Notes: a model not told the origin generated them from the sequence alone. 64,000 bases of DNA from a bacterium (GCA_027484965.1 JAIXRY010000015.1:1622-65621); one strand, 5' to 3'; shown: positions 18,606 through 50,652, numbered from the stretch's first letter. Translations and numbers: made by a program.

Positions 18606-18985
18606 GGGAGTGCTAGGCTTCGACAGGTGACATTCTTCTATATGGTGCATGTCGAGTTCGTGTCTATATCGTAAAAAGAGACACAAAACACGAAATGCAA
18701 AAAACACTTTTGCGGTAAAATCTCCTTTCTTCGGATTTGCAGATTTTGCTTTTGCTCGCGCTTAAGCGAACAATGGTTGTTATTTTGACATCTGATAAAA
18801 TTAACAACTATCATACACATCAGGTTGCAAAGAATTCTTGTCTCGAGGATTCTTTAAAGACATAGAGACACCTCTATTACTTTTTTGTTTTGCTTTAATG
18901 TAATAGATCAAATAAGCATAACTACACATGTAGATCTGTATAGAAAATTCATTTGGACGGGGGTTCGATTCCCCCCACTTCCACA
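18606..18985 (+). ncRNA. ssrA: tmRNA (ssrA), one-piece, about 380 nt
   Basis: 5' end GGGAGTGCTAGGCTTCGACAGG...GGTGCATGTCGAG resembles the E. coli 5' tRNA-like domain. The 3' end GGACGGGGGTTCGATTCCCCC + CACTTCC + A forms a T-arm plus a 7-bp acceptor stem with 5' GGGAGUG (one G-U pair). The candidate tag frame begins near 18697 (GCA) and ends ...FADFAFARA at the TAA at 18763-18765. Confidence 0.75.
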
Positions 18986-19032
18986 AATTAAAAAACCAAC
19001 AATTCTGTTGGTTTTTTAATTTGTGGAAGTGG
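18975..19032. repeat. Long perfect inverted repeat (about 27 bp arms) that includes the tmRNA 3' acceptor end. Likely terminator.
   Basis: CCACTTCCACAAATTAAAAAACCAACA / TGTTGGTTTTTTAATTTGTGGAAGTGG. Confidence 0.55.
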
Positions 19033-21247: not shown

Positions 21248-21306
21248 AAATACAGTGCATAAAAAATTCCGACCATGTGGTCGGAATTTTTTATGCACTG
21301 TATTTT
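21248..21306. terminator. Nested palindromic bidirectional terminator
   Basis: AAATACAGTGCATAAAAAATTCCGACCATGTGGTCGGAATTTTTTATGCACTGTATTT. Confidence 0.6.
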
Positions 21307-21353: not shown

Positions 21354-21851
21354 TTAGTCAATTTTTATATTTTTTGCTTGACCAACACTTGCAAGTTCGC
21401 TTGTTGCAAGATCAAGGATCTCTCCATGGAAGTTCAATCCTTCTTCACAAATCATCATAAGGCTACTATTGTCAATACCTTGCGCACATCCATTAAGTAA
21501 TGCAAAATGCACAATCGCAGCACCTTCGAAGAAGCCACTCCACTCCATAATCTCAGTTGCATTTTCCCATTCATCACCCACATATAAGTCACGCATTTTT
21601 GTGAGTTTTTCGACTGTTTTTCCTTGTTTTGTAAGGGTTATTTCAGATACTCCACTTTCTTCCACAAACTTTTTTAGCGCTTCTAAGTGGGCGTTATTTG
21701 TGTCTATATAGCTTGTCACTTGTTCTGCTCCAAGAGTGTTTGTGAGAGTGAGTGACGCTCTCTTCCAAGTGTCGATTCCTACCTCACAAAACGCTAATAC
21801 TTCACCAATTTTTTTTGCTGTAAATTCATTAATCATACATAGAGTATACAT
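21354..21851 (-). CDS. Hypothetical protein (about 160 aa, helical). Start uncertain.
   Basis: Long ORF convergent with ftsH. No motif recognised. Confidence 0.4.
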   Translation of the reverse strand: MYTLCMINEFTAKKIGEVLAFCEVGIDTWKRASLTLTNTLGAEQVTSYIDTNNAHLEALKKFVEESGVSEITLTKQGKTVEKLTKMRDLYVGDEWENATEIMEWSGFFEGAAIVHFALLNGCAQGIDNSSLMMICEEGLNFHGEILDLATSELASVGQAKNIKID

Positions 21852-21961: not shown

Positions 21962-24900
21962 ATGCAGAGTGGCTACACCAAAAACTTACGCGCATTTTTG
22001 CGGAAGAACAGCATCATTTTGTCGCTGGTATTTTTTGCTTTGTTTGGTACTGGTGTAAGTCTTTTTGCTGCTGCTCCAGATACTGAGCCATATCAACCAG
22101 GAGAGACTCTTGACCCCACATGTATTCCAGGTTCTTCAGTAAACTGTACAGTTCGAATATTACCTTCTCAAATTGGTAATGCTGGTAAATTTTTGACTAC
22201 AAACGGAACAACAACATCTTGGGCTTCAGTTCTCACTTCTCCATCTTTTTCTGATGTTACCCTTACAGGTAACACTACATTTCCATCCCTTTCAACTGCT
22301 GGGGGAATATTATACACAGATGGTTCTGGCGTTCTTGCTCAGTCTGCTGCAGGTATTGCTGGCCAAGCAGTTATTTCTGGGGGCGCTACTGGTCCAACAT
22401 ATTTTGCTCCAACATTAGGTTCAATACTTTTTGCTGGAACATCTGGAATTCTTTCTGAAAATAATTCAAATTTCTTTTGGGATAATACGAACAACAGACT
22501 AGGTCTTGGTACAAATACTCCAGTAACATTACTTAATATCGGGACAGGTACACCTACAACAGCTTCTAGTGGAATTCAGTTTGGTACAGATGTGCTTGCA
22601 AACCTATATCGTAACGATACAGGGAATATTAAAACAGATGGTGTTTTGAATGTGGGCGACCAATTGAACGTGGGGAACAGTTTAGATCTTACAGGTAATC
22701 TCTATTCTAGAGGCGATCTAAGACTTTTGAATAAAGCTGAAAATGGTTGGATTAGTTTTGCTACTCGCAACACTGCTGGACCAGAAGCTCTATATGACTT
22801 ATCAAATATTGGAACATTGTTTGCTAACCAAATTAATTCTTCTGGAACTATTAGTGCAACACTACCTTCAGGCTCATTTGGTACTATCGCTTCTTTTGGA
22901 GCAAATGGTGCTGCTGGTCTTATAAATATCGGATATGAAGATGGTAGTGGAATTAGTAGTATTACCGGCTCTGGTTTCGGACCTTTCCAAGTCGCTTCAT
23001 CTGCGAATAATAATATTATTATCAATCCAGGTAGTGGTAATGTGGGAATCGGAGCAGTGAGTCCTACTCAAAAATTGGAGGTGAATGGAAATATATTGGT
23101 AGGTGGCAGTAATGCATATTTGTATTTTAGAGATGAATATAATTACATTAAAAATGCTGATGGATTACCTGTAGATGTAAAAGGTCATCATGGAGTGCGC
23201 GCATACAATGATCTTGGGGAAGTTGCACGTTTTGGTACAGCGAGTGATTCTTTGAATTCTTACTTTAATGGAAATGTCGGTATTGGTTCTGTTACACCTT
23301 CCGCAAGACTTGAAGTTAAATCAGAATTAAATACAGACAGTGTTATTGCTATTAATACAAATTCTGTAGATTTTGATTCATACCTTTCACTTCAAGAAGC
23401 TGGTGTTGAAAAATGGAAATTCCGCAATCAAGGTGATAGTGGAGATAAGCTTCGTATTGGAAGTGCTACAAACCCTCTAGCAATTTCTGTTTCTCAAATG
23501 GGACAAATAAGTTTGGGTTCAACAACAGCTAGTGCTTGGTTGTATCTTCCAGCAAGTACTGGAGCTGGTCAAACTGCGCCACTTAAATTCACAGCAGGGA
23601 CAAATATTATATCTCCAGAAACAGGTGCTGTAGAATATGATGGTACTCAGCTATTTTTTACTCCAGCTTCTACTCGTAATATTTTGGCGCAAGTGTCAGG
23701 ATCTACAGCTCTTACTTCAGGATCTATTCCTTTTGCAACAACTTCAGGATATCTCACACAAGATAATTCAAATTTCTTCTGGGACGATACTAATAACAGA
23801 TTAGGTATTGGTACAGCGAGTCCAGCAACAGCATTGGATGTAAATGGTGTTGTTAAAGCCTCATTTCTAAGAGCAGATTATTTAAATACAACAAATAATG
23901 GAGCAACTATTATAGGTAATTTTACAAGTGAAAACCGTATTTATGACCAAGCTGGTACATGGTTAATGACTTTAAAATCAGGTAACGTCGGTATTGGTAC
24001 AACTAATCCAGGTTATAGATTAGATATTCTAGGTTCTAGTACGTCTGGTGTCTCTGCTTCAACTCAAATTCTCGGTGGAACAGGAACAAGTGCTGGTGGT
24101 CTTAGATTAGGTGCTTGGAGTGCTTCATACGGAGGATTTTGGTCTGCGAGTGTAATACCTTCATCTACTAACTATGCTCTTATTTCAAATGGTGCTGATA
24201 CAGCATTAAACACTACTTCAACTGGAGGAATTTATATAAACAATAGTACACAAGCTTTAGGGTGGAATATTAACGGAGTTTCAATCGGAGCAGCCGCTAC
24301 TAGTCAAGGACAGCTTGCTGTTATAAATCAAAATAATTCTCGTGTAGCTCTTGTAGTAAGAGCTACCACTTCTCAAACCGCAAATCTTACACAATGGCAA
24401 GATAATACAGGTGTTGTATTGGCTAGAATAGCTTCTAATGGTGCATTAAGTGTAGGTACAACTAACACCTCTGACCTGTATGGTGATTGGGGAGGTGCTG
24501 CTGAAATTCCAGCTGGTGCAGCCAATAGTTCTTCTAATGGTGGAATGTCTCTTTTTGCTGGGGGCACTACTCCTGGAACGAATAAAGCGGGTATTTACTA
24601 TTATCAAGGGGGTACACAATGGCGTTCAGCTGCAGAAGTTTCTAACACAACAAGCGGTTTTGGAAACCTTTTGCTTATGAAGTCTGGCGGTAACGTTGGT
24701 ATTGGTACAACAAGTCCAACCGCAAGACTAAATATTGTTGGAAATATTTTAGGACAAAGCTCTCTAACAGATGCAACAGCTAAAGACTTTTCTATAACTA
24801 CTGGACATCATACAAATTCAGAAGAATCTTTAGCGATGATTTCTGGTATTTCAAATGCTACACAAAATATTATATATTTAGGAGGTGGAAGTTCTTCTAA

Positions 24901-27900
24901 TAATACAGCTACTGATGTTCGTTTCTTTACAGCTGCAAACAACACAACAACTACAGGGACAGAAAGAATGAGAATATTATCAAATGGTAATGTCGGTATT
25001 GGAACAACAAATCCAGGATTCCCATTAGAAGTAGCGTCTAGTGGTACCAATGATACTGCAAGATTTTATGGGAATAGTGGTACAGCTCTTGTGTATGTTG
25101 GAGTAAACGGAACACTGGCTAGTGTAAGTGGTCAGTATAGAATTTATGCAAATAGTGGTATTCCTCTAACTCTAGGTGCTAACGGTATTCATAGTCAAAT
25201 GTTTATAAGTACTGCAGGCAATGTCGGTATAGGAACTACAAGTCCAGTAGGAAAACTAGATGTATCTGCTGGTCTTGGTTCTCAAACAGCTGGAGATTTT
25301 GTTGTAGATACTGCAAATAATATCGTGTATGTTGGTAAACTCGATAGTGTTTCAGGTAATACAAACTTTATCTTTAGAGATAGGTTGGGTGGTGTGAAAT
25401 CACGTTGGGAAAACGCAGGTTCTGGAAGTATTGGATTTTCTAATTTTAGTAACGGCTTTGGTGTAAGTATCGGTCCAACAATATCAGGTTCTATAGGGTC
25501 TATTGGAACAATGCTGTTAGTTCAAAATGCGAATGCTGGTTCTACTAATCCAACAGCGATATTTAGACAAGGCACAACTCAAACAGGTGACTTAATGCAA
25601 TGGCAAAATAGCGCAGGAACTGTTCTTGCTGAAATAGATGTTAATGGTTCTATGATAAACGACTCACTTTTCAGTCTTACTCATAATGCAACATCAAGAA
25701 CAGCAGTTGAAATTACAAAATCAAACGATGATGGTATATTAAATATTTATCGTGATGGTTCTATTGATACAAAAATTCAAGGTAATGGTAATTCATACTT
25801 TGCAAGTCTTAGTGGTGCTTTTGTAGGTATTGGTACTTCAAGTCCTTCTTATCCTCTTGATGTTACCGTTCCTACATCTGGTAGTTTTGCTCAAAGAATT
25901 ACTCGAAACACAGCAGCAACAACAAACTTTAATTCAACAAACATTCTAGTTTCAAGATCAACAGGAGACGCTGCTGACGGATTTGGAGGAGGTTCTGTAT
26001 ATGCTCTATCAGACAACACAGTAGGAGATACATTTCTGGGTTCTGTTGGTGCTGTGAGGGACGGCGCTGATAATTCTGGCGCTTTGGTTTTTAATACATA
26101 TATAACTGGTAGTTTCAATGAAAGAATGAGAATTACTTCATCAGGTCTTGTGTCTATTGGTGTAAACTCTGGTATAGCTCGATTGGGGGTAGTGAATGCT
26201 AATGCTGGAGGTGTTGCTATGATTGTAAGAGGAGCAGCTTCACAGTCTGCAAACTTAGTTCAATTTCAAGACGCTACTGGTACTGTTTTAAGTCGTGTAG
26301 CAGCGGATGGAAGTCTCCTTGTGAGAGAAGATTATACAACAGGTGCTGCTGTTTTAATGACATTTGCTGGAAATAGAGCTACTTATGGTATTGACTCTAA
26401 TTCAGATTTTTATATTGATACATCTGCTGCTAGAGGTACAGCAATAAAATCAGGTGGTGTAACAACATTGTATACATCATCTAATTCTACAGGAAACAAT
26501 ATAACTATTGGTTCAAATACTTCTATTGCTAAGTTTGGAGTTATAAACTCTAATGCTAGTACTGTTGCTTCTGTAATTCGTGGTACTACTTCTCAATCAG
26601 CAGATTTAACACAATGGCAAGATAACTCGGCTACAGTTTTAGGCGCAATTAAATCTAGTGGCGCAATGGTTATTGGTAATAGTGGTGCTCAAATTGGGTC
26701 TGTACCGCTCTCTGTTGTTGGTTCAGGGACAGATGCTTATATAGCAATGAAACCAGTAGGACAATCAGGATTTGGTTTTACCTTTGGTACACCTTCTGCA
26801 CAAAACTCTGAATTATGGAATTACGGAACTGGATTTATGCGTTTTGCAACAAACAATGCAGAATATATGAGAATTGTCTCAACTGGGGATGTAGGTGTCG
26901 GTACATCTACCCCTCTTACAGTAAACGGTATTTCTGTTGCAGGCGAGAGAGTATTAAATGTAAACGGTTCTGGTGGTACAAGACTCGCAGTACAGAGTGC
27001 GTCAGGTTCTAGTTTGGACTTCGTAAATACTGGAAACTCTACAAATGCAAAATGGGCATTATTCCAAAATCTTTCAAATAACTTCATTATTAAGTCTCAC
27101 ACTGACGCAGGTTCTACTCGCTTTACTTTCTTAACTGCTGATTTGACTACTGGCAATCTTACTGTGGGAAATTCTGGAATGGCAAAAACTTTGTCTTTAC
27201 AATCTGACAGAGCTAATATTATTGTAAGAGGTTCTACAGACGGAGGGACAGGTCCATTTATAGATTATGATATAAACTCAAGCTCTACAGCAGGTACTAC
27301 TTTTGCTCGTATTTCAAATGGTACACTGTCTGGCGCTACTTCAGGAACAAATATTGCTGTGGCGATGTCTCCAACATTTAATCCAGCTGCAGGAACAGGT
27401 GTGTTTAGAACTCTTGATATAAACTACACCACCAATGCAAGTGGCGCTCAAGGTGGTTCAATGACTGGGCTTCGTGTGAATAGAAATGTTCAAGGTGGCT
27501 CTACTGCATTTACTACAGACATGCTTGCAGATTTCCAAGCAGGAGGTCTCTCTCAATTTTCTGTGAGAGCTGATGGTGTAGTTACTATTGGGTCGTCTGG
27601 ATATTTAGTAACTCCAACAATATTTTCTGGTGGAGGAGGAACAACAGCGTTTGGTAATAGAGTATTGGTCGGTACTACTGGAACCACTACTGCACAACTA
27701 GAAACTAGGGCTGCATCTGCAACTACTGTTCCTTTGTTTGTAAGAGGTGCGTCTTCACAAACAGCAGACCTTCAGCAATGGCAAAGTAGCGACAGTACAA
27801 GATTGTTGTCAGTAAATAGTGCTGGTAATATCGTTATGCAAGCCACTTCAGACAAATACATATATGGTGGACCTGCAAGTGGAAACTATATCAATATGTA

Positions 27901-30052
27901 TAATTCATCAACAGGAAGAATACATTTAAAGGGATTAGGTACAGCTGGAGCTCAAATAGAGGGTGCTTTGGTTGTAGAAGGGGCTCTTAGCTTTAATGGT
28001 AATCTATCTCTTGCTAGTAATAGTATTTTAGGTACAAGTAATTCTGAAATACGTTTATATGACGGATCAACAGGTAATATTCAATTGCGAGCTGGTACTG
28101 GCTCAGTTGGTATATCACAAATTTCATTTTGGACCGGAACTACTCCTACAGAAAGAATGAAAATTGATAGTAGTGGTAATGTCGGTATTGGTACAACGAG
28201 CCCATCTGCTAGACTTCAAGTTAACTCAACTTCATCAGCTGTAGATCCACAGGTGATTGATATATCTACTGGTGGTTATGCTTCCAGTACTAATCATAAT
28301 GGACTAGTTTTGCAAAACAGTAATACAGCTACAAACAACAATCAACAATACGCACCGAGTATAGTATTTAGTGGTAATACTTGGTCTACTAATTCTTCGA
28401 CTGCGAACAATTCAAAATTAAGAATTGCACAGACTGGTGGTCAGACTTTTGCGCAAGGCAGGTCTTATCTGAGTTTTCAAAATAATGAAAACAATGGTGG
28501 TTGGAATACAATGATGCACCTAACTCCAGATACAGGATTGTTTGTAGGAGGTACAAATGGTATGGGAAATATTACTTCTTTAAACCTAACATTAGGTCCA
28601 AAATCTTCTTCAGGTACAATTGCTCAAGGTTCTATGATTTTTATGAGAATTGCATCAAACTTTAATCCGACATCAGGTACGGCAAATGCTTCAAACATTG
28701 ATACTACAGGTCTAGGATTTAATCCATCTTCAGGAAATGCAGAATTCAATGGGTACGCATATAGCATGTTAATAAGTCAAACAGGTAGTGCGGCTGGCAT
28801 CACTCGTGGAATGTATATTAATCCTAATTTGGCATCAGCAGCAGATTTCCGAGCAATAGAGATATCAAACAATAGTCATTATGGAATATATCAAAGTGGT
28901 GCAAGTGCAAAAAACTATTTCAATGGGAACGTCGGTATTGGAACAACATCTCCAGCAGAAAGATTTCATGTGTCAGGAAGTGATACTAGTGGTAGTGGGA
29001 TTGTCGCATTGGTTGAAAATACTGCAACAACAGGATCACCTTATGCTACCTTTAGAATGAAGTCATCTAATACGGTTTATGGGCAGTTCTTTGGCGGTGC
29101 TGTAAATGATCCTTATGGAATTGTAAATGGTATAACAATGACTCCAGGAACAAGTACTCAAGATATTGGTTTTCGAACTGGTAATCAGGTTACAGGTGGC
29201 GGAAATGGACCTTCAATGATTATTAAAGATAGTGGTAATGTAGGTATTGGGACAAAAGCACCAGGATACAAATTGGAAGTAGGTAGTGCAAGTGTGACTG
29301 GGATAGTGTCTCGATTTGTAAACTCTACTGGTACTTGTGATATTAATCCTACAACCACATCACTCTCTTGTTCTTCAGACCAAAATCTTAAGAAAAATAT
29401 TACTTCACTTTCAGATGAATTATTAACAAAAGTTATTTCACTTAGACCTGTAACTTATAATTGGAATAGTGAGACTACAGAGACTGTTGGTCATATTGGA
29501 TTTATAGCTCAAGAAGTTGAACAGATATTCCCAGATTTGGTGTCTACCGATTCTGTCTCAGGATTAAAATCCTTAAATTATATTGGCTTTATTCCTTACA
29601 TAACAAAAGCTGTTATAGAGCAAAATATAAAAGTATCACTCCTTGAAGATAGGGTTAAGGCTTTGGAAGATAAAATCAACGGAACAAATGGTTTAATTGG
29701 TGGAATTGTTAGCGATGTAAAAGATATGGTTGTGAGTACTTTGAAAGTTGGAACACCAGAAAAGAGAACTGGTATTACAATATACGACGAATCGACAGGT
29801 GATCCTTTCTGTATAAAAGTTGTAAACGGAAATATGCAAACAGTTCCAGGTGAATGTGCTGTAGTAAGTGCTCAAACACAAACAGTTCTTCCTGAAAATA
29901 GTCAAAACCAAAATATAAATGAAGAACTAATAAATGACTCTTCAAAAAATACAGACACAGCAGAAAAGATGATAACAGAAGACCAAACAACAGATCTGAC
30001 GGTTGAACCAATAATAGAAATACCTCAAACAGAAGAAATTGCCACAGAATAA
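21962..30052 (+). CDS. Giant (2696 aa) secreted or surface fibrous protein: N-terminal signal/TM, Gly/Thr/Ser/Asn-rich tail-fibre-like repeats, C-terminal intramolecular-chaperone (peptidase S74-like) domain
   Basis: N-terminal hydrophobic segment LSLVFFALFGTGVSLFAAAP. At least eight copies of GNVGIGTT(S/N)P...(R/K)L.V.G. At least five copies of SQ(S/T)A(N/D)L.QWQ...G.VL. The C-terminal segment (about 29370-29700) SSDQNLKKNI...L.PV.YNW.......HIGFIAQEVEQ.FP.LV matches the endosialidase / tail-fibre intramolecular chaperone family. Confidence 0.8.
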   Translation: MQSGYTKNLRAFLRKNSIILSLVFFALFGTGVSLFAAAPDTEPYQPGETLDPTCIPGSSVNCTVRILPSQIGNAGKFLTTNGTTTSWASVLTSPSFSDVTLTGNTTFPSLSTAGGILYTDGSGVLAQSAAGIAGQAVISGGATGPTYFAPTLGSILFAGTSGILSENNSNFFWDNTNNRLGLGTNTPVTLLNIGTGTPTTASSGIQFGTDVLANLYRNDTGNIKTDGVLNVGDQLNVGNSLDLTGNLYSRGDLRLLNKAENGWISFATRNTAGPEALYDLSNIGTLFANQINSSGTISATLPSGSFGTIASFGANGAAGLINIGYEDGSGISSITGSGFGPFQVASSANNNIIINPGSGNVGIGAVSPTQKLEVNGNILVGGSNAYLYFRDEYNYIKNADGLPVDVKGHHGVRAYNDLGEVARFGTASDSLNSYFNGNVGIGSVTPSARLEVKSELNTDSVIAINTNSVDFDSYLSLQEAGVEKWKFRNQGDSGDKLRIGSATNPLAISVSQMGQISLGSTTASAWLYLPASTGAGQTAPLKFTAGTNIISPETGAVEYDGTQLFFTPASTRNILAQVSGSTALTSGSIPFATTSGYLTQDNSNFFWDDTNNRLGIGTASPATALDVNGVVKASFLRADYLNTTNNGATIIGNFTSENRIYDQAGTWLMTLKSGNVGIGTTNPGYRLDILGSSTSGVSASTQILGGTGTSAGGLRLGAWSASYGGFWSASVIPSSTNYALISNGADTALNTTSTGGIYINNSTQALGWNINGVSIGAAATSQGQLAVINQNNSRVALVVRATTSQTANLTQWQDNTGVVLARIASNGALSVGTTNTSDLYGDWGGAAEIPAGAANSSSNGGMSLFAGGTTPGTNKAGIYYYQGGTQWRSAAEVSNTTSGFGNLLLMKSGGNVGIGTTSPTARLNIVGNILGQSSLTDATAKDFSITTGHHTNSEESLAMISGISNATQNIIYLGGGSSSNNTATDVRFFTAANNTTTTGTERMRILSNGNVGIGTTNPGFPLEVASSGTNDTARFYGNSGTALVYVGVNGTLASVSGQYRIYANSGIPLTLGANGIHSQMFISTAGNVGIGTTSPVGKLDVSAGLGSQTAGDFVVDTANNIVYVGKLDSVSGNTNFIFRDRLGGVKSRWENAGSGSIGFSNFSNGFGVSIGPTISGSIGSIGTMLLVQNANAGSTNPTAIFRQGTTQTGDLMQWQNSAGTVLAEIDVNGSMINDSLFSLTHNATSRTAVEITKSNDDGILNIYRDGSIDTKIQGNGNSYFASLSGAFVGIGTSSPSYPLDVTVPTSGSFAQRITRNTAATTNFNSTNILVSRSTGDAADGFGGGSVYALSDNTVGDTFLGSVGAVRDGADNSGALVFNTYITGSFNERMRITSSGLVSIGVNSGIARLGVVNANAGGVAMIVRGAASQSANLVQFQDATGTVLSRVAADGSLLVREDYTTGAAVLMTFAGNRATYGIDSNSDFYIDTSAARGTAIKSGGVTTLYTSSNSTGNNITIGSNTSIAKFGVINSNASTVASVIRGTTSQSADLTQWQDNSATVLGAIKSSGAMVIGNSGAQIGSVPLSVVGSGTDAYIAMKPVGQSGFGFTFGTPSAQNSELWNYGTGFMRFATNNAEYMRIVSTGDVGVGTSTPLTVNGISVAGERVLNVNGSGGTRLAVQSASGSSLDFVNTGNSTNAKWALFQNLSNNFIIKSHTDAGSTRFTFLTADLTTGNLTVGNSGMAKTLSLQSDRANIIVRGSTDGGTGPFIDYDINSSSTAGTTFARISNGTLSGATSGTNIAVAMSPTFNPAAGTGVFRTLDINYTTNASGAQGGSMTGLRVNRNVQGGSTAFTTDMLADFQAGGLSQFSVRADGVVTIGSSGYLVTPTIFSGGGGTTAFGNRVLVGTTGTTTAQLETRAASATTVPLFVRGASSQTADLQQWQSSDSTRLLSVNSAGNIVMQATSDKYIYGGPASGNYINMYNSSTGRIHLKGLGTAGAQIEGALVVEGALSFNGNLSLASNSILGTSNSEIRLYDGSTGNIQLRAGTGSVGISQISFWTGTTPTERMKIDSSGNVGIGTTSPSARLQVNSTSSAVDPQVIDISTGGYASSTNHNGLVLQNSNTATNNNQQYAPSIVFSGNTWSTNSSTANNSKLRIAQTGGQTFAQGRSYLSFQNNENNGGWNTMMHLTPDTGLFVGGTNGMGNITSLNLTLGPKSSSGTIAQGSMIFMRIASNFNPTSGTANASNIDTTGLGFNPSSGNAEFNGYAYSMLISQTGSAAGITRGMYINPNLASAADFRAIEISNNSHYGIYQSGASAKNYFNGNVGIGTTSPAERFHVSGSDTSGSGIVALVENTATTGSPYATFRMKSSNTVYGQFFGGAVNDPYGIVNGITMTPGTSTQDIGFRTGNQVTGGGNGPSMIIKDSGNVGIGTKAPGYKLEVGSASVTGIVSRFVNSTGTCDINPTTTSLSCSSDQNLKKNITSLSDELLTKVISLRPVTYNWNSETTETVGHIGFIAQEVEQIFPDLVSTDSVSGLKSLNYIGFIPYITKAVIEQNIKVSLLEDRVKALEDKINGTNGLIGGIVSDVKDMVVSTLKVGTPEKRTGITIYDESTGDPFCIKVVNGNMQTVPGECAVVSAQTQTVLPENSQNQNINEELINDSSKNTDTAEKMITEDQTTDLTVEPIIEIPQTEEIATE

Positions 30053-30094
30053 AAATAACTAGAGATAGTTATTTTTATTTGTTATAATTATTTT

Positions 30095-30688
30095 ATGAAA
30101 AAAGGTTTTACCCTTCTCGAGCTCCTCATTGTTATAGCAATCATAGGAGTACTCTCATCTATAGTTCTTGTAAGTTTGGGTAATTCCCGCGCAAAAGCCG
30201 ATACTGCTTTTGTAAAACAACAAGCAGATCAGATTAAAAAACAAATGGAATTATATTATCAACAATATGGTAATTATGGTTATTATGCTACCAACATGAA
30301 TATTCGTGGTGGGTATCAACCAGCAGGATATGCAGGATACGTCAATTTTCCAGGTGGCGCAGGGGATTGCTACGCCCCCTTTGCAAGACAAACTGTATCT
30401 GATACTCCGGGGACAATTAGTTATCAGATTGCTTTGATGGTTGGTAAAGCAATGCAAAAAACAAGTGATAATGTATTTTGGTGTTATATTTCACCAGACC
30501 AACAATCATACGCTTTTGCTTTTGTTGGTATGAAGACTGGTCCTAATACTTATTGTATTGATTCTAGTGGTAATGTTAAGGAGTCTAATACTGCAAATCT
30601 AACAACTCCTATAGGAAGCGTCATTGGTGGAACTTTGCAACGAGTTACGAATGCTGCATTACTAACTTCACCTGTGTCTTGTTTGTAA
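30095..30688 (+). CDS. Type IV pilin-like protein (prepilin, class III signal)
   Basis: MKKGFTLLELLIVIAIIGVL, with G|FTLLE at the prepilin peptidase site and Glu5. Confidence 0.85.
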   Translation: MKKGFTLLELLIVIAIIGVLSSIVLVSLGNSRAKADTAFVKQQADQIKKQMELYYQQYGNYGYYATNMNIRGGYQPAGYAGYVNFPGGAGDCYAPFARQTVSDTPGTISYQIALMVGKAMQKTSDNVFWCYISPDQQSYAFAFVGMKTGPNTYCIDSSGNVKESNTANLTTPIGSVIGGTLQRVTNAALLTSPVSCL

Positions 30689-30760
30689 TTTAAACCTATA
30701 CACTCTGGGTATGCGGACATTAATTAAAAAACCTCCTTTTGTGGAGGTTTTTTAATTAAT

Positions 30761-30779
30761 GTCCGCCCTCTTGGATTCG
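30761..30779. repeat. 19-bp direct repeat of the tRNA-Ile(TAT) 3' end (att-like scar). The partner is at 32412-32430.
   Basis: GTCCGCCCTCTTGGATTCG is identical at both positions. The upstream copy is embedded in a long palindrome (30713-30768). Confidence 0.6.
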
Positions 30780-31428
30780 CCCGCGACTAATTAGTTTGCA
30801 AACTAATTGTCTGGGCACCAGCTCGTCTATTTTTCTGCTGAAAAATATGACTCCGCTGTTCGAAACCAAACGTACATGAAGCAGTTTATGTACTTAGGGC
30901 GAACCCTCGTTTCACTCGTGTCCACTCTGAATATTCTACTTCGAACCAAATTGAATGTGGATTCAAGTTTTTATCTGTTGAAATAGAGAAAATTAGAAGT
31001 GAACTAAAATCATTAAATTCATTATTAGTTATTGATGAGGATAATCGTTAGGTATTATTGATATTTTCCATTACTTTTGGAGTGAACAATCATCCAAATA
31101 AAGAATTGGTTAGGTTTCGATATGAAACACAATTAAACTCATAAATAAAAATAATTCAATTTTTGGTTAATGTTAAATTAGTTGTGCTTATAATTTTCAT
31201 AACACCCTAGTTGAATTTGGGCTAACTAAATTATATTTAAATATATTGACTTTATAAAAAAAGTAGAGATAAATCTGGTTAATTGTTTTGGTGTTGGCAG
31301 TTTTGATTATACTTTCGATTTTGAAGGTTTAAAAACAAATTCATTATTGAAAATACTGCAATTATTTTGTGGCTTTTTTAATTTCAATAAAATAAAAAAA
31401 GACACAACTAAAAGTCATGTCTTATATA

Positions 31429-32007
31429 TTAATTCGAATAAATTTCCTTCCGTATGTACTTCTCAAATTCAATTGGAAACTTATCCTGAGGCCAACCCCT
31501 TAATGCAGTACGAACTGCAAGTTTATATGACTCCTTCCATGTTCCTTTGAAACTATATAAATCTGGGAAGTTTTCGAAATCTTCTAGAGTTTCGATTTTA
31601 AATAATGCCGAACCATCTGTTTTAAGGTAAACATCAATAGTTTTATCTTTTGCGTCATAAAATATTGATGGAGGGAATTTACATAAAAGAATTACTCCTT
31701 GTTTTTGTAGAATTTCAGAGTCTAGTTCTGTAATAATGGCGCTGGTGTTTTTACCGGGTAGGTTTTTAAATATGCTTACCCAATTTTTTAAAGTTGGAAG
31801 CATCTGGTTAAAATCAAAAAGTTTAATTTCTATTGGGTCAATGGTAATTACTTTCTCACTTAAAATGTCTTTAAGTAAAGGTAACTGACCTAGAAAAAAA
31901 CATAATTCTAATTTTTGTTCTGGTGTTAGAGGTTGTTCTGTTTCGATTTGTTTCTTAATTTCCTTAAAGATTGTCAAATCCTTAATTGTTAAAATTAATG
32001 TATTCAT
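31429..32007 (-). CDS. Hypothetical protein (192 aa), the only ORF between the direct repeats
   Basis: Long ORF with no recognised motif. It is flanked by AT-rich non-coding DNA. Confidence 0.45.
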   Translation of the reverse strand: MNTLILTIKDLTIFKEIKKQIETEQPLTPEQKLELCFFLGQLPLLKDILSEKVITIDPIEIKLFDFNQMLPTLKNWVSIFKNLPGKNTSAIITELDSEILQKQGVILLCKFPPSIFYDAKDKTIDVYLKTDGSALFKIETLEDFENFPDLYSFKGTWKESYKLAVRTALRGWPQDKFPIEFEKYIRKEIYSN

Positions 32008-32409
32008 ATTGTAAATGCTTGATTTACAACAGCATACACCTTTAACTACTTAGTGTCAATAATAAATTACCTATTACAATAGTAGAGAGAAATAATTCAT
32101 ATAAAAATCAGTCTTTATTTTAAGGTGAAATAATTTGTCCAGGTAGGTCAAAAAAGTTGAGTATTATTACCTTAAAAGTACAGCAAAAAACTATCACAAA
32201 ATTTTTGTCATAAATTGTGGTATTTGTTATAACAGAAATAAGTAATAACCTAAATAAGACTTTATCTAAATTTATCAAGTTTGTTGTTATAAAGATACAG
32301 TGGTTCGAATTTCCTGAAGGAATAGTCTTTGATGGAAACAAATTTTGAACCAACAAAATATGCAGTATTTTTAAGGTAAATGAGTTATTTTACGCAATTG
32401 ATTCCAAAA

Positions 32410-32486
32410 TGGTCCGCCCTCTTGGATTCGAACCAAGGACCCCAGAGGTATAAGCTCTGTGCTCTAACCAACTGAGCTAAGGGCGG
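32410..32486 (-). tRNA. tRNA-Ile (anticodon TAT / UAU), CCA encoded
   Basis: Manual fold gives a 7-bp acceptor CCGCCCT/AGGGCGG, D-arm GCTC-AGTTGGTTA-GAGC, anticodon stem CAGAG/CTCTG with loop CTTATAC, and T-arm CTTGG-TTCGAAT-CCAAG. Confidence 0.7.
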
Positions 32487-32605
32487 ATGTGTCATTTATT
32501 AACTAAAATTGTTAATCTGTTAATGACTGTAATTATAGATTAAAAATCAACAATTATCAACAATATGTAAATTATATCATTAAAATGGTATAATTTATTG
32601 GTAGT

Positions 32606-33172
32606 ATGAATAAATCTAATAAAGCATTTACACTCATCGAACTCCTTATAGTTATTGCAATCATTGGCGTTCTTGCGTCTGTTGTTCTTGCAAGTCTTAA
32701 TTCTTCTAGGAATAGAGCTGATGCGGCTTTTGTAAAACAACAAGCAGATCAGATTAAAAAAGAATTTGAAATTTACTATGCTTCAAATGGAAATAGATAT
32801 GGCTTCTGGGCAAGTAATATGAATTTACAGAGTCCATATACATCAGCCGGGTTTACAAGTATCCACGCAGGTGCTGGTCATTGTTATGTACCTTTTGGAA
32901 GAGTGGATACAAATATTACAAGAATGGTAGGTAAGGCAATGGAAAAAACAAATATTAATTTGACTGGAGGTAGTAATGGGGGAGGTGTTGGTTTTGGTTT
33001 CTGGTGTAGAGTATCTCCAGATGGTCAATCTTACGCATTCGCTTTTGTTAATATGAAGAGTGGTCCAAATATTTATTGTGTTGATTCAAGTGGAAATATA
33101 AAAGAATCTAACAATGCTTCTAGTGTTGATCCTATTAGTACTCATATGGCAAATCCTGTGACTTGTATATAA
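32606..33172 (+). CDS. Type IV pilin-like protein (paralogue of 30095..30688; shares AFVKQQADQIKK)
   Basis: KAFTLIELLIVIAIIGVL prepilin motif. Confidence 0.85.
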   Translation: MNKSNKAFTLIELLIVIAIIGVLASVVLASLNSSRNRADAAFVKQQADQIKKEFEIYYASNGNRYGFWASNMNLQSPYTSAGFTSIHAGAGHCYVPFGRVDTNITRMVGKAMEKTNINLTGGSNGGGVGFGFWCRVSPDGQSYAFAFVNMKSGPNIYCVDSSGNIKESNNASSVDPISTHMANPVTCI

Positions 33173-33212
33173 TTTATACATAAGTCTTTTTTGTTATAAT
33201 ATAAATACAATT

Positions 33213-33746
33213 ATGTTTAGTAATAAAAAAGCATTTACTCTTTTGGAACTCCTTGTTGTCATTGCGATCATCGGCGTTCTTGCGGCTATTGTGATGGCAA
33301 GTTTGAATAGTGCGAGAGTGAAAGCAAGAGATGCGCGTCGTCTTCAAGATATAAAAACCATCCAGACTAATTTAGAAATATATTACAATACATATAATAG
33401 TTATCCGCCAACTCCTACAGGTGGATGGATTCATAGTTCAGAAACAACATGGGATGGTCTAGAAAATTCTATGGGCATGAAATTGCCAAGAGACCCTGTA
33501 AATCAGGCTTCACCTTGGTTAAATGATCAATCTAGAGCATGGTCTTCAGATCAAAGGTTATTCATGTACGATTATTTGTCAGGAAGCGTACAGAATGGGT
33601 GTGCTACAGGAACTTTTTATTGGCTTGTCTATCGTCTTGAAAAAGGGAATACTCCTGTAAATGAAAGTCCAGGTGTTTTTATGTGCGATGGATCTACTTT
33701 TAAAGCTGTAAATGGTGCAATAACTGTTGGTGCGAATTCAAAATAA
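33213..33746 (+). CDS. Type IV pilin-like protein
   Basis: KKAFTLLELLVVIAIIGVLAAIVMASLNSARVKARD. Confidence 0.85.
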   Translation: MFSNKKAFTLLELLVVIAIIGVLAAIVMASLNSARVKARDARRLQDIKTIQTNLEIYYNTYNSYPPTPTGGWIHSSETTWDGLENSMGMKLPRDPVNQASPWLNDQSRAWSSDQRLFMYDYLSGSVQNGCATGTFYWLVYRLEKGNTPVNESPGVFMCDGSTFKAVNGAITVGANSK

Positions 33747-33782
33747 AAATCATATTTTAAAAAATCTGTTATAATTAATAGT

Positions 33783-34250
33783 ATGAAAAAAGGATTCACT
33801 CTCCTCGAACTCCTAGTCGTCATTGCAATCATTGGCGTTCTTGCTGCTATTGTTATGGCGAGCTTAAATAGCGCTAGAGTGAAATCAAGAGACGCAAAAC
33901 GAGTGTCTGATATACGACAAATTAAAGTTGCGCTTGATTTGTACTTTAACGATTTTGGATATTATCCTGATTGTTCTGGTAATGATGTATGTTCCAGTAC
34001 TGGATACTCTGGTTCTATATATAATTTAAGTATTGTTCCAAACTATATAAAAAATATAAGTAGTGACCCTAGAAATATATCAGGTCAGTATGGTTATTAT
34101 TATGCAAGGACTTACAAGAAGGCGGGGAGTAGTTATATATATACAGGATTAAGTACAGATTATATACTTGCTACAAGACTTGAAAATACAAGTAATGGAT
34201 CATTTGGGGGTTGGGACAATAACTTTTTAAACTATATAGAAGGAAATTAA
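33783..34250 (+). CDS. Type IV pilin-like protein
   Basis: MKKGFTLLELLVVIAIIGVLAAIVMASLNSARVKSRD. Confidence 0.85.
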   Translation: MKKGFTLLELLVVIAIIGVLAAIVMASLNSARVKSRDAKRVSDIRQIKVALDLYFNDFGYYPDCSGNDVCSSTGYSGSIYNLSIVPNYIKNISSDPRNISGQYGYYYARTYKKAGSSYIYTGLSTDYILATRLENTSNGSFGGWDNNFLNYIEGN

Positions 34251-34297
34251 AACTAAATGTATATTTAACTATGTATTAAAAATGTTATAATTATTTT

Positions 34298-34792
34298 ATG
34301 AAAAAAGCCTTTACTTTAATAGAGCTTCTTATAGTTATAGCAATCATTGGTGTTCTTGCTTCTATTATTCTTGCAAGTCTTAATTCTTCTAGAGATAAAG
34401 GTTCTGATACTGGAATGAAGACTGCTATTAATAGTCTTCGTTCTGCCGGTAATATTATCTTTAACGAGTATGGTTGTTTTGCTGGTTCTAGTGGGGGTTG
34501 TAATGGTACAAACCTTGGACCAGGAGCATGTTCTACACCAGGAAGTACTATTTTTAGTAATTTAGAATTTGCAAAAATAACTGCTCCTTATAGAACTAGT
34601 AGTGATTTTATAACTTCATGTAGTTCAACAACAGGTCAAACAGCTTGGGCTATTGCTATTAGACTTAAAAGTAATACAACAAAAGCATGGTGTGTTGATT
34701 CGCTTAATACCGCAAAAGAAATAAGTAATGGCGGAACAGCTTTTAATCAGACAACATTAAATAATGCTATTGTTGGAGGTGTTTGTAGTTAA
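34298..34792 (+). CDS. Type IV pilin-like protein
   Basis: MKKAFTLIELLIVIAIIGVLASIILASLNSSRDKG. Confidence 0.85.
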   Translation: MKKAFTLIELLIVIAIIGVLASIILASLNSSRDKGSDTGMKTAINSLRSAGNIIFNEYGCFAGSSGGCNGTNLGPGACSTPGSTIFSNLEFAKITAPYRTSSDFITSCSSTTGQTAWAIAIRLKSNTTKAWCVDSLNTAKEISNGGTAFNQTTLNNAIVGGVCS

Positions 34793-45362: not shown

Positions 45363-45477
45363 TTTTATACCGTATCTATCAATTTTTACATTAAATAGAC
45401 CTTAGGTAAATTAAATTGTCTTGTCTTTTTAGGACAATTTTAGTATAGCAAAAAACACTTAATTTTCATAGTCAAAT

Positions 45478-50431: not shown

Positions 50432-50483
50432 ATATTTGTTTTTAGACTAAACAATCTTTTTAAAAGGGAAGATGTAACCCATG

Positions 50484-50557: not shown

Positions 50558-50652
50558 ATGTGTTTTATATGACATTATATGAAGTATAGCAAAAAACATA
50601 TAGTGTATTTTATTCAAAAAATGACTGATGAAACCTGTCACGTTTCGAATTG

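What the first reader, a model, noticed from the sequence alone, without database searches (positions are those of the whole stretch)
21962..34792. Giant tail-fibre-like surface protein with a self-cleaving chaperone domain, embedded in an array of five type IV pilin paralogues
One 8.1-kb gene encodes a 2696-aa secreted protein. It is built almost entirely from two alternating repeat classes, GNVGIGTT.P...L.V.G and SQ.A.L.QWQ...G.VL. It ends in a domain matching the intramolecular chaperone / S74 peptidase of phage tail fibres and endosialidases, which folds a trimeric beta-helix and then excises itself. Five genes with the G|FTLLE prepilin motif follow directly (30095, 32606, 33213, 33783, 34298). 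In a small-genome, apparently CPR-like organism this looks like a candidate host-attachment apparatus: a phage-fibre-like adhesin plus pili. The fibre has about 115 residues beyond the chaperone domain, which is unusual.
Basis: partly seen in the sequence, partly recalled or inferred. Interest (0 to 1): 0.75.

Follow-up and report, generated by a model that had tools for sequence, protein, structure and literature searches.

The report
Giant self-cleaving surface fibre beside pilins
A tiny-genome (Patescibacteria-type) bacterium encodes a 2,696-residue surface fibre related to the prey-grabbing fibres of the predator Bdellovibrio, with a self-cleaving folding domain as in phage tail fibres; five pilus-subunit genes lie next to it, but that pairing recurs only in some relatives.

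Summary
The core observation holds. Window 21962-30052 (+) is one intact ORF of 2,696 aa. It has one N-terminal hydrophobic signal segment and a strong Peptidase_S74 (intramolecular chaperone) domain at aa 2472-2527 with the catalytic S2472-x4-K2477 motif. Five genuine type IV prepilin genes follow.

The description is overstated in three places. The two motif classes cover about 62% of the protein and do not alternate regularly. The pilins are not a contiguous array: a 1.9-kb gap holds an opposite-strand orphan ORF and a tRNA-Ile(UAU). The window contains no pilus machinery.

The shaft is homologous, by sequence and by predicted fold, to the crystallised trimeric beta-helix fibres of the Bdellovibrio MAT adhesin family. 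The MAT N-terminal retention domain is absent; a short Cys-loop "head" shared by a Patescibacterial subfamily takes its place. The roughly 120 residues beyond the chaperone are not unusual, because they form a module found in about 2,000 protein clusters.

Fibre-pilus linkage recurs in some lineages: 4 of 20 fibre-centred loci sit upstream of a complete pilus operon. It is absent from 37 pilus-centred loci, so functional coupling is unproven.

Verdict: a real, native, uncharacterised variant of a known kind of adhesin, of moderate interest.

The parts
21962..30052 (+). Giant fibre gene, 2,696 aa, a single intact ORF
   Evidence: GC3 is 0.18, within the range of neighbouring genes, so codon usage is native. 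An identical protein is on record from a 156,834-bp NCBI contig.
21962..22072 (+). Signal peptide, aa 1-~37: basic n-region, hydrophobic core aa 16-40, probable A-x-A cleavage 'LFA|AAP'
   Evidence: This is the only Kyte-Doolittle window above 1.6 in the protein. The '...A-x-A|(T/A)PP' context is conserved in relatives. Cleavage is inferred; no signal-peptide predictor was available.
22073..22231 (+). Conserved N-terminal 'head' cassette, aa ~38-90: 'PYQPGETLDPTC.PG..NCTV' followed by 'ILPSQ.GNAGKFLTTNGTTTSW'
   Evidence: Shared by P0002, P0052, P0067, P0145, P0160, P0169, P0175, P0203 and P0224 and by the fibres of L011, L021 and L044, which otherwise have unrelated shafts. Two paralogues in L086 carry an identical head.
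22880..29353 (+). Shaft, aa ~307-2464: 14 MAT-like beta-helix modules ('ERMRI..sGNVGIGT..P...L.V' capping-loop motif) and 5 'SQxAxLxQWQ' modules, with unassigned stretches between
   Evidence: Profile mapping. PDB sequence hits to 8OND Bd2133 and 8OML. PHROG tail-fibre families phrog_9942 (8e-32) and phrog_18345. AF2 model of aa 985-1125 is all-beta with pLDDT 75. The top 14 Foldseek PDB hits are all Bdellovibrio MAT fibres.
29375..29680 (+). S74 intramolecular chaperone / autoprotease domain, aa 2472-2573, including the long C-terminal helix. Predicted scissile or nucleophile Ser2472 (codon 29375-29377) and Lys2477.
   Evidence: PF13884 at E 2.1e-16. S, D and K are invariant in 14- and 23-sequence alignments. 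AF2 pLDDT 83-96. Foldseek hits: MyRF ICA 7DC3 at E 1.6e-4 and prob 1.0, plus 3GW6 and 3GUD.
29696..29863 (+). Post-chaperone module, aa 2579-2634: a helix plus a three-stranded beta unit with two conserved Cys (C2617, C2632); 'TLKVG.PEKRTGIT.YDE.TG.P.C....NG....PGEC'
   Evidence: Profile A3 finds 1,972 representative proteins at E <= 1e-3, nearly always close to the C-terminus. The module follows canonical or divergent S74-like domains. AF2 pLDDT 69-80. No Pfam match.
29864..30049 (+). Acidic low-complexity tail, aa 2635-2696 (14 D+E, 2 K+R)
   Evidence: Relatives have Pro/Glu/Thr-rich tails in the same position.
30095..30688 (+). Prepilin 1 (197 aa), 42 nt after the fibre stop. No terminator lies between them, and a -10-like box sits in the gap.
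30713..30766 (.). Perfect hairpin with 24-nt arms directly after pilin 1; a likely transcription stop for a fibre-pilin 1 unit (inferred)
32606..33172 (+). Prepilin 2 (188 aa), full-length paralogue of pilin 1 (50% aa identity; DNA duplicate spaced 2,520 bp)
33213..33746 (+). Prepilin 3 (177 aa)
33783..34250 (+). Prepilin 4 (155 aa); shares only the N-terminal helix with pilin 3
34298..34792 (+). Prepilin 5 (164 aa), Cys-rich head

Best explanation
The gene encodes a native, cell-encoded trimeric fibre adhesin of the MAT / tail-fibre type.

Proposed mechanism:
1. The precursor is exported by Sec through its single N-terminal signal peptide. Signal peptidase I probably cuts it at the conserved A-x-A site (inferred).
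2. Three chains are brought into register by the C-terminal S74 intramolecular chaperone. This nucleates folding of an intertwined triple beta-helix shaft running N-wards. This step is inferred from the family; homology is shown here.
3. The Ser2472/Lys2477 dyad then cuts the chain at Ser2472. The motif and fold are shown here; cleavage is inferred.
4. Cleavage releases a 225-aa fragment consisting of the chaperone, the conserved beta module and the acidic tail. It exposes a disulphide-braced distal tip, '...CDINPTTTSLSC'.
5. The mature fibre of about 2,435 aa per chain would be roughly 150-180 nm long. This uses the rise per residue modelled for Bd3182 and is an inference.
6. The fibre is held on the cell by the short conserved N-terminal Cys-loop head (inferred).
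7. It binds surface glycans or proteins of the partner cell on which this Patescibacterium lives (inferred by analogy with Bdellovibrio MAT fibres and phage fibres).

The five neighbouring genes are ordinary type IV pilin subunits, assembled by machinery encoded elsewhere. They share a variable surface-structure locus with the fibre. They may act in the same attachment process, but nothing shows a physical or regulatory unit beyond possible co-transcription of the fibre gene with pilin 1.
For: - S74 domain: E 2.1e-16 with SDxxxK. The catalytic residues are invariant across relatives. The fold matches the solved intramolecular chaperones 7DC3, 3GW6 and 3GUD.
- Shaft: homologous to the crystallographic trimeric beta-helices of Bdellovibrio MAT fibres by sequence (8OND 1.3e-5, 8OML 8.7e-5) and by predicted fold (top 14 PDB hits). 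PHROG tail-fibre families match.
- MAT fibres are surface-displayed, self-cleave at the S74 serine and bind prey glycans (PMC10769870).
- Export: a single N-terminal hydrophobic segment.
- Native chromosomal gene: it lies between FtsH and RecG with native GC3, and the window holds no phage structural genes.
- Mosaicism: shuffled shared blocks with P0002, with both ends conserved. Paralogues in L086 have an identical head and different shafts. This is the pattern expected of a display end plus a variable binding part.
- Family size: 309 giant relatives, many from Patescibacteria.
- Pilins: all five pass the N_methyl and TIGR02532 thresholds.
Against: - No experiment and no multimer model was possible, so trimerisation and cleavage are inferred.
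- The MAT-defining N-terminal domain is not detectable, so the retention mechanism is unknown.
- The distal tip is conserved among distant relatives while the shaft varies. This is the reverse of the usual 'variable tip' rule, so the binding site may lie elsewhere, or the fibre may not be a specific adhesin.
- 38% of the protein matches neither module profile.
- The host or partner organism is unknown.
Confidence: 0.6

Rival explanations
1. Fibre and type IV pili form one co-evolved host-capture apparatus. The fibre would be docked on, positioned by or exported with the pilus system, for instance through its Cys-loop head, and the adjacent pilins would be its dedicated partners.
For: - All five pilin genes of the 64-kb window lie within 4.8 kb downstream of the fibre gene on the same strand. 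Pilin 1 starts 42 nt after the fibre stop with no terminator between them.
- L001 keeps fibre followed by pilins.
- L021 carries a fibre with the same head directly upstream of pilM-pilO-pilB-pilT-pilC-pilins.
- L006, L049 and L061 show the same order.
- That is 4 of 20 informative loci against about 0.5 expected under a crude random-placement null (Poisson p about 0.002). This is my own calculation and assumes the loci are independent.
- The MAT paper itself raises a possible interplay with type IV pili.
Against: - 0 of 80 PilB-centred loci contain an S74 domain; 37 of them have at least 5 kb upstream. The HMM recovered 86 of 87 positive controls. Only one fibre-like ORF was seen.
- This implies that fewer than about 8% of such pilus operons have an S74 gene within the sequence available upstream.
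- Fibres with the same head in L011, L044, L085 and L086 lie among housekeeping genes.
- 16 of 20 fibre-centred loci have no pilus machinery operon downstream (L022 has an adjacent pilin).
- The window has no pilus machinery, and the fibre has no prepilin N-terminus.
Confidence: 0.2
2. A surface fibre with a non-adhesive role: a structural envelope or spacer fibre, or a tailspike-like polysaccharide depolymerase acting on the partner's capsule or wall.
For: - S74 chaperones also mature enzymes such as endosialidases; the family description is 'Chaperone of endosialidase'.
- Weak fold hits include a beta-helical hyaluronidase, 4UFQ.
- The conserved tip and variable shaft fit lateral activity along a beta-helix.
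Against: - No catalytic domain was found by Pfam, NCBIfam-type or PHROG scans; Peptidase_S74 is the only Pfam hit.
- The 4UFQ matches are not significant (E 0.2-0.8).
- The best structural relatives are adhesins.
Confidence: 0.13
3. A remnant or active component of a prophage, tailocin or contractile injection system, that is, a true virion-type tail fibre.
For: - PHROG tail-fibre hits.
- tblastn hits to the T4-like distal long tail fibre, cyanophage and Pelagibacter phage fibres.
- 6F45, the phage S16 gp37 structure.
Against: - The phage similarity covers at most 13% of the protein, at 26-33% identity.
- The flanks are FtsH, SmpB/tmRNA and RecG, with no capsid, portal, terminase, baseplate or sheath genes among the window ORFs scanned.
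- Codon usage is native.
- A Sec-type signal peptide is not a feature of virion fibres (established knowledge).
- Relatives are likewise embedded in housekeeping contexts.
Confidence: 0.03

Closest known systems
Bdellovibrio bacteriovorus MAT (mosaic adhesive trimer) fibre superfamily, S74 subgroup (e.g. Bd3182; also Bd2133, Bd1334, Bd2439); Caulton et al. 2024, PMC10769870
   Same: - Cell-encoded and exported, not part of a virion.
- Beta-helix shaft carrying the same 'ERMRI..GNVGIGT..P...L' capping-loop motif. Sequence hits to 8OND and 8OML; fold hits to 8OND, 8OML, 8ONC, 8OJN, 8ONB and 8ONF.
- C-terminal S74 domain with SDxxxK.
- Mosaic architecture with one conserved end.
- The organism lives by attaching to other microbes.
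   Different: - The MAT-defining ~130-aa beta-rich N-terminal domain is not detected. A ~30-55-aa Cys-loop head replaces it.
- 2.5-3 times longer: 2,696 aa against about 1,000.
- Contains an extra 'SQxAxLxQWQ' shaft module with no known relative.
- Has an additional post-chaperone module and acidic tail.
- Patescibacteria are not listed among MAT-bearing taxa in that paper's supplement.
Phage tail fibres and tailspikes with a C-terminal intramolecular chaperone (K1F endosialidase CIMCD 3GW6, GA-1 3GUD, T5 pb1, S16/T4-like gp37 6F45); MEROPS/Pfam Peptidase_S74
   Same: S74 domain by sequence and fold, with the Ser-Lys dyad, placed after a beta-helical region.
   Different: - No phage context.
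- Has a signal peptide.
- Similarity is limited to the last ~350 aa.
- Far longer.
- The chaperone is followed by a further conserved module.
MyRF ICA (intramolecular chaperone auto-processing) domain, 7DC3
   Same: It is the best structural match of the predicted C-terminal domain (E 1.6e-4, prob 1.0). The MAT paper also notes that the capping-loop motif recurs in MyRF.
   Different: It is a eukaryotic membrane-bound transcription factor, so the biology is unrelated. Only the trimerising, self-cleaving module is shared.
Patescibacterial type IV pili (Nanosynbacter lyticus TM7x T4P-1 and T4P-2; PMC11623550)
   Same: - Short-leader G|FTL(L/I)E prepilins.
- TM7x also has a pilin-only locus with 5 pilins, separate from its machinery loci.
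- Pili mediate host binding and motility in cultured Saccharibacteria.
   Different: - No orthology to named TM7x pilins was tested.
- None of the five pilins here carries a large accessory (lectin or propeller) domain; they are 155-197 aa.
- No S74 fibre is reported next to the TM7x pilus loci in that paper.

Membership tests
Peptidase_S74 / C-terminal intramolecular chaperone domain (PF13884) | Profile match above the curated threshold | tested here: met
   60.4 bits against a cut-off of 22, E 2.1e-16, aa 2472-2527, profile positions 1-57 of 58
Peptidase_S74 / C-terminal intramolecular chaperone domain (PF13884) | Catalytic Ser-Lys dyad in an S-D-x3-K motif at the start of the domain | tested here: met
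   S2472-D-Q-N-L-K2477. S, D and K are invariant in alignments A1 and A4. The same SDxxxK criterion is used in PMC10769870.
Peptidase_S74 / C-terminal intramolecular chaperone domain (PF13884) | Fold of solved intramolecular chaperone domains | tested here: met
   AF2 pLDDT 83-96 over the domain. Foldseek: 7DC3 at E 1.6e-4 and prob 1.0, 3GW6 at prob 0.89, 3GUD at prob 0.99.
Peptidase_S74 / C-terminal intramolecular chaperone domain (PF13884) | Autoproteolytic release after trimer folding | not testable with these tools
   Needs expression of wild type and S2472A, or proteomics
MAT (mosaic adhesive trimer) superfamily, Bdellovibrio | Signal peptide | tested here: inconclusive
   A single N-terminal hydrophobic segment at aa 16-40, preceded by basic residues and followed by A-x-A. 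No signal-peptide predictor was available.
MAT (mosaic adhesive trimer) superfamily, Bdellovibrio | Conserved ~130-aa beta-rich domain immediately after the signal peptide | tested here: not met
   BLASTP of aa 1-700 against full Bdellovibrio fibre ORFs (L032, L033, L080) gives only shaft-repeat matches and nothing to their N-terminal 'LTYQGRILKPDGSPL...' domain. A different, shorter head is present. Only BLAST sensitivity was applied.
MAT (mosaic adhesive trimer) superfamily, Bdellovibrio | Trimeric beta-helix shaft with the capping-loop motif | tested here: met
   10 exact GNVGIG motifs and 14 profile hits. Sequence matches to 8OND and 8OML lie on the motif. The monomer AF2 model's top 14 PDB hits are all MAT fibres. 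Trimer state itself was not modelled.
MAT (mosaic adhesive trimer) superfamily, Bdellovibrio | Terminus is either S74 or another adhesive tip domain | tested here: met
   S74 terminus
MAT (mosaic adhesive trimer) superfamily, Bdellovibrio | Display on the cell surface and binding of partner-cell epitopes | not testable with these tools
   Experimental
Phage virion tail fibre | Encoded within a phage, prophage or tailocin structural module | tested here: not met
   The flanks are FtsH, SmpB/tmRNA, TruB and RecG, with no phage structural genes among the window ORFs scanned. GC3 is native.
Phage virion tail fibre | Similarity to phage tail-fibre families | tested here: met
   phrog_9942 at 8e-32, phrog_18345 at 1.6e-15, phrog_33119 at 1.5e-7. 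GenBank phages match at most 13% of the protein at 26-33% identity.
Type IV pilins (the five downstream genes) | Class III signal: short leader, G|F-T-L-[IL]-E with Glu5, hydrophobic N-terminal helix | tested here: met
   All five pass PF07963 (29-34 bits against 21.2) and TIGR02532 (31-37 bits against 16.3).
Type IV pilins (the five downstream genes) | Assembly machinery (PilB/PilC/PilM/PilD) encoded with them | tested here: not met
   tblastn with L021 PilM, PilN, PilO, PilB, PilT and PilC finds nothing in the window. The rest of the 157-kb source contig was not available.

The most novel reading that the evidence does not exclude
In a set of Patescibacterial lineages, S74-matured giant fibres carrying the conserved N-terminal Cys-loop head form a two-stage partner-capture device together with type IV pili. 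The fibre would be docked through that head to a pilus-associated or envelope receptor and would be co-inherited with the pilus operon. A second novel element is that the widespread post-chaperone module, which is released with the chaperone, acts as a previously unrecognised control or retention element. If correct, phage-derived fibres would be a shared attachment solution of predators (Bdellovibrio MAT), bacterial episymbionts (Patescibacteria) and possibly DPANN-like archaea (L083).
Probability: 0.12. Interest if true: 0.8.

Novelty: new variant of a known kind. Interest (0 to 1): 0.55.

Why it matters
How ultrasmall Patescibacteria recognise and hold on to their partner cells is largely unknown. 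Only type IV pili and unspecified 'surface adhesins' have been implicated so far.

This locus links a very large, uncharacterised Patescibacterial protein family to a structurally and functionally characterised adhesin system, the Bdellovibrio MAT fibres. NCBI annotates members of the family only as 'tail fiber domain-containing protein'.

The link gives concrete, testable predictions:
- a defined cleavage site at Ser2472;
- a candidate docking head at the N-terminus;
- a conserved distal tip;
- a mosaic shaft.

It also defines two sequence modules with no known relatives: the 'QWQ' shaft module and the post-chaperone module, the latter found in about 2,000 protein clusters. If the fibres are host-range determinants, they would be useful markers for predicting CPR-host pairings from metagenomes.

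Tried and rejected
1. Exact-sequence lookup of the giant protein's contig failed twice, although the protein is in the collection. The rest of the source contig could therefore not be inspected for pilus machinery.
2. The first 14-sequence C-terminal alignment was too diverse for the genome scan. A 5-sequence alignment worked, but the source genome is not a species representative.
3. The word-indexed homology search could not handle the 71-aa post-chaperone module (no candidates). It gave only 2 hits for the N-terminal head. Both searches were effectively wasted. The exhaustive HMMER search solved the first question.
4. Cluster lookups for module-bearing proteins gave almost no organism names, so the module's taxonomic range is unknown.
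5. A profile of the 'SQxAxLxQWQ' module against PDB and PHROGs gave no significant match.
6. Folding the N-terminal head was abandoned once alignment showed that only ~30-55 aa are conserved.
7. Prophage or tailocin origin was rejected on context and codon usage.
8. Recent horizontal acquisition was rejected. The raised GC lies in codon positions 1-2 and reflects Gly/Ala/Ser/Thr-rich composition; GC3 is not raised.
9. orf165 upstream of the fibre (21354-21851, minus strand) is conserved only in L001. The 165-aa ORF upstream of the L021 fibre is unrelated.
10. Literature searches joining CPR/Patescibacteria with endosialidase chaperone, 'tail fiber domain-containing protein' or MAT found nothing.
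Full report
**1. What is in the sequence**

Window 21962..30052 (+) is one uninterrupted ORF of 2,696 aa. The identical protein is on record from a 156,834-bp NCBI contig.

The protein is rich in Gly, Ser, Thr, Asn and Ala and has six Cys in three close pairs. Its only hydrophobic segment is aa 16-40, preceded by basic residues and followed by 'LFAAAP'. That fits a Sec signal peptide with an A-x-A cleavage site. This is inferred; no predictor was available.

Pfam finds a single family, Peptidase_S74, at aa 2472-2527 (E 2.1e-16, 60.4 bits against a cut-off of 22). The domain opens with S2472-D-Q-N-L-K2477, the SDxxxK Ser-Lys motif. PHROGs returns three tail-fibre families.

Five ORFs at 30095, 32606, 33213, 33783 and 34298 all exceed the curated thresholds of PF07963 and TIGR02532. 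They are the only prepilin-motif ORFs in the 64 kb.

**2.

- There are 10 exact 'GNVGIG' motifs and 5 'SQxAxLxQWQ' motifs, at irregular spacing. Profiles built from family members map 14 MAT-like modules (1,422 aa) and 5 'QWQ' modules (477 aa), together 62% of the protein. Unmatched stretches are aa 1-306, 1326-1370, 1753-1891, 1989-2049, 2162-2318 and the C-terminal region. Internal repeats are too diverged for BLAST at E < 1e-6.
- The fibre gene is not embedded in the pilin array; it lies upstream of it. Only pilin 1 follows directly, after 42 nt containing a -10-like box and no terminator. A perfect hairpin with 24-nt arms follows pilin 1.
- A 1.9-kb stretch then holds a minus-strand 192-aa orphan ORF and tRNA-Ile(UAU), before pilins 2-5.
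- Pilins 1 and 2 are full-length paralogues at 50% identity. Pilins 3 and 4 share only the N-terminal helix.

**3. Genomic setting**

The neighbours are housekeeping genes: the SecY/ribosomal cluster, TruB, SmpB with tmRNA, and FtsH upstream, and RecG downstream. No phage structural genes and no pilB, pilC or pilM were found in the window.

The fibre gene's GC3 (0.18) lies within the range of its neighbours (0.11-0.30). Its higher overall GC sits in codon positions 1-2. The gene is therefore native, not a recent import.

**4. What the protein is related to**

- A sequence search of PDB gives as best hits 8OND (Bd2133, E 1.3e-5) and 8OML (E 8.7e-5). The alignments fall exactly on 'ERMRI..sGNVGIGT..P...L.V'.
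- These are fibres of the Bdellovibrio MAT ('mosaic adhesive trimer') superfamily. MAT fibres are surface-displayed and trimeric, with a beta-helix carrying a recurrent capping-loop motif. Thirteen of the 21 end in an S74 domain with SDxxxK. Self-cleavage has been shown experimentally (Bd3182, S782), and so has prey-glycan binding (Bd2439) (PMC10769870).
- An AF2 monomer model of shaft aa 985-1125, using a 36-sequence alignment, is all-beta with mean pLDDT 75. Its 14 best PDB matches are all MAT fibre structures. Seven have E <= 0.001 and probability >= 0.99. TM-scores are low (0.23-0.36), as expected when a monomer model is compared with chains from intertwined trimers.
- An AF2 model of aa 2290-2643 gives pLDDT 83-96 for the S74 part. 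It matches the MyRF ICA domain (7DC3, E 1.6e-4) and the phage intramolecular chaperones 3GW6 and 3GUD.
The S74 assignment is solid. The shaft is homologous to proven trimeric beta-helices, although the trimer itself could not be modelled here.
- GenBank phages match only aa ~2250-2600, at most 13% of the protein, at 26-33% identity.

**5. Differences from MAT and from phage fibres**

- *No MAT N-terminal domain.* The ~130-aa N-terminal MAT domain is not detectable by BLAST against three full Bdellovibrio fibres.
- *A different head.* The mature N-terminus is instead a ~30-55-aa cassette: '(T/A)PP..Y.PGETLDP[TS]C.PG..NC[TS]V', sometimes followed by 'ILPDQTG.AGK.LTTDG...SW'. Nine other proteins and the fibres of L011, L021 and L044 share it, although their shafts are otherwise unrelated. 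Two paralogous fibres in L086 carry an identical copy. By analogy with phage and MAT fibres, this conserved end is the likely docking end (inference).
- *Mosaic shaft.* P0002, the closest relative, shares both ends and several shaft blocks in shuffled positions, and carries about 1,400 extra residues.
- *Conserved tip.* The distal tip just before the cleavage site ('ARF.N..G.CDINPTTTSL.CSSD') is conserved among distant relatives. This is the opposite of the usual variable-tip rule.
- *Orphan shaft module.* The 'QWQ' shaft module has no match in PDB, PHROGs or Pfam.

**6. The C-terminal extension**

Beyond the chaperone's long helix (aa 2543-2573) lie three elements:
- a second helix (aa 2579-2593);
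- a three-stranded beta unit (aa 2605-2629, pLDDT 69-80) with two conserved Cys;
- a 62-aa acidic tail.

A profile of this module, searched against 1.84 billion representative proteins, finds 1,972 proteins at E <= 1e-3 and 721 at E <= 1e-10. The module is almost always 100-250 residues from the C-terminus of proteins of 120-7,453 aa. It follows canonical S74 domains, divergent S74-like domains that keep S-x4-K, or, in a few proteins, a region with a 'GRVPVKV...G.I..GD' motif that I did not scan against a family library.

In the family, the distance from the cleavage Ser to the C-terminus ranges from 83 to 558 aa. The extension is therefore real but common. It has no Pfam model and no assigned function. 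Because it lies after the cleavage site, it should leave with the chaperone.

**7. Is the fibre linked to pili?**

Fibre-centred sample (33 Patescibacterial loci found through the S74 region):
- A pilin lies immediately downstream only in L001 and L022.
- L001 is almost the same genome; its upstream gene is 89% identical.
- Scanning for machinery shows a complete pilM-(N)-O-pilB-pilT-pilC operon downstream on the same strand in L006, L021, L049 and L061.
- That is 4 of the 20 loci with at least 5 kb of downstream sequence.
- The L021 fibre carries the same N-terminal head as the window protein and lies next to a RecG orthologue at 56% identity.
- Under a crude null of one or two pilus loci per ~0.8-Mb genome, about 0.5 would be expected. 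The Poisson p is about 0.002. This is my own calculation and assumes independence.

Against general coupling:
- Fibres with the same head in L011, L044, L085 and L086 lie among housekeeping genes.
- Other giant relatives (L082, L084) also do.
- In the reverse test, 80 PilB-centred metagenome loci (930 kb; 37 with at least 5 kb upstream) contain 128 pilin-motif ORFs, no S74 domain and only one fibre-like ORF. The same S74 HMM recovers 86 of 87 positive controls.
- This gives a 95% upper bound of about 8% for pilus operons with an S74 gene in the sequence available upstream.

Conclusion: the linkage is recurrent in some lineages but not general. It is compatible either with functional cooperation or with co-residence in a variable surface-structure locus.

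For context, cultured Saccharibacteria also keep a pilin-only locus of five pilins apart from the machinery loci (PMC11623550).

**8. Most likely mechanism (confidence about 0.6)**

1. Sec export and signal-peptide removal.
2. Trimer registration by the S74 chaperone.
3. Folding of a triple beta-helix.
4. Ser2472/Lys2477 autocleavage, releasing a 225-aa fragment.
5. A mature fibre of about 2,435 aa per chain, roughly 150-180 nm long if it has the rise per residue modelled for Bd3182 (550 Å for about 760 residues).
6. The fibre is held by its N-terminal head and binds partner-cell surface structures.

Shown here: domain identities, catalytic motif, predicted folds, homology to MAT, native chromosomal context and mosaicism. 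Inferred: export, trimerisation, cleavage, surface retention and ligand.

Rivals are a fibre-pilus apparatus (0.2), a non-adhesive fibre or depolymerase (0.13) and a phage or tailocin remnant (0.03).

**9. Novelty and interest**

S74-terminated cell-surface fibres are a known kind (MAT; phage fibres). NCBI already labels Patescibacterial members 'tail fiber domain-containing protein'.

In the searchable literature I found no paper that connects Patescibacteria with S74 or MAT fibres. The MAT paper's list of other taxa names predators only.

The following make this a new variant of a known kind rather than a plain member:
- a different head;
- giant size;
- an orphan shaft module;
- an unannotated post-chaperone module;
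- the lineage-restricted pilus neighbourhood.

Interest is moderate at 0.55. It is a concrete, testable candidate for the long-sought host-attachment determinants of CPR bacteria. The central idea, a phage-like adhesin on a cell that attaches to other cells, has a precedent, and the coupling to pili is unproven.

Noticed in passing
window 32410-32486 (-) and 31429-32007 (-): A tRNA-Ile with anticodon UAU (Rfam 69.4 bits) and a 192-aa orphan ORF (no Pfam or NCBIfam hit) sit in the 1.9-kb gap that splits the paralogous pilin 1 and pilin 2 genes. Those two genes are a DNA duplicate spaced 2,520 bp at 73-76% identity. This looks like an insertion or rearrangement into a former tandem pair. The UAU anticodon for Ile is, to my knowledge, uncommon in bacteria.
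   Followed up: partly
window 45279-45408 (-): A LOOT RNA (Rfam RF03000, 67 bits against a gathering score of 46) lies next to a type III restriction-modification pair (mod 43526-45214, res 41230-43521, both on the minus strand).
   Followed up: no
window 18606-18986 (+): A full-length tmRNA (160 bits) lies directly after smpB (18067-18513). Farther on there is a strong 20-bp-stem bidirectional terminator at 21253-21300, between ftsH and the 165-aa ORF that precedes the fibre gene.
   Followed up: no
window 9691-12426 (+): A 911-aa VirD4/TraG-like coupling protein (TrwB_AAD_bind, TraG-D_C). It is of the kind discussed for the Patescibacterial monoderm-type type IV secretion system.
   Followed up: no
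window 48729-50384 (+) and 50357-50858 (-): A large serine recombinase (Resolvase + Recombinase + Zn_ribbon_recom) abuts a cluster of four tRNA genes (Asp, Met, Met, Thr). Two ORFs without any family (437 and 406 aa, at 45478 and 47388) precede it. This may be the edge of an integrated element.
   Followed up: no
family members P0012, P0028, P0038, P0041, P0044, P0048, P0117 (e.g. L082 10001-20155): Several giant S74 fibres begin with an HTH_17 (PF12728, excisionase/MerR-like DNA-binding) domain. In the three N-termini I read (P0012, P0041, P0044) a hydrophobic segment follows it, in place of a signal peptide. This is an odd cytoplasmic-domain, membrane-segment, extracellular-fibre architecture.
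   Followed up: no
L083 10001-19309: A 3,102-aa S74-terminated relative (P0029) lies in an archaeal gene context (Ribosomal_L15e, TFIIE_alpha, diphthamide synthase, wyosine synthesis). The fibre family therefore also occurs in archaea, possibly DPANN-type.
   Followed up: partly
L086 10001-15979 and 17943-20972: Two S74 fibres (1,992 and 1,009 aa) in one Campbellbacteria contig share an identical signal peptide and Cys-loop head but have different shafts. A CarboxypepD_reg-like 624-aa gene separates them, and the pair is inserted between EF-G and EF-Tu.
   Followed up: partly
L021 10933-19875; L049 11618-20292; L006 4078-10708: Complete Patescibacterial pilus operons with the conserved order pilM, an unassigned ~230-aa ORF, pilO, an unassigned ~225-aa ORF, pilB, pilT, pilC, pilins. 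The two unassigned ORFs have no Pfam match.
   Followed up: partly
window 30060-30094, 33173-33212, 34270-34297: At least three of the pilin start codons (pilins 1, 3 and 5) are preceded at about 7-12 nt by a TATAAT-like box, for example 'ttgttataattattttATG'. The upstream regions of pilin 1 and pilin 5 are alike. This suggests individual, nearly leaderless transcription units.
   Followed up: no
L049 9362-10420; P0024 N-terminus: A second type of fibre N-terminus, '...TPNPGH.WS...', occurs on the small 352-aa S74 protein next to the L049 pilus operon and on the 3,710-aa P0024. This suggests several alternative head cassettes in the family.
   Followed up: no
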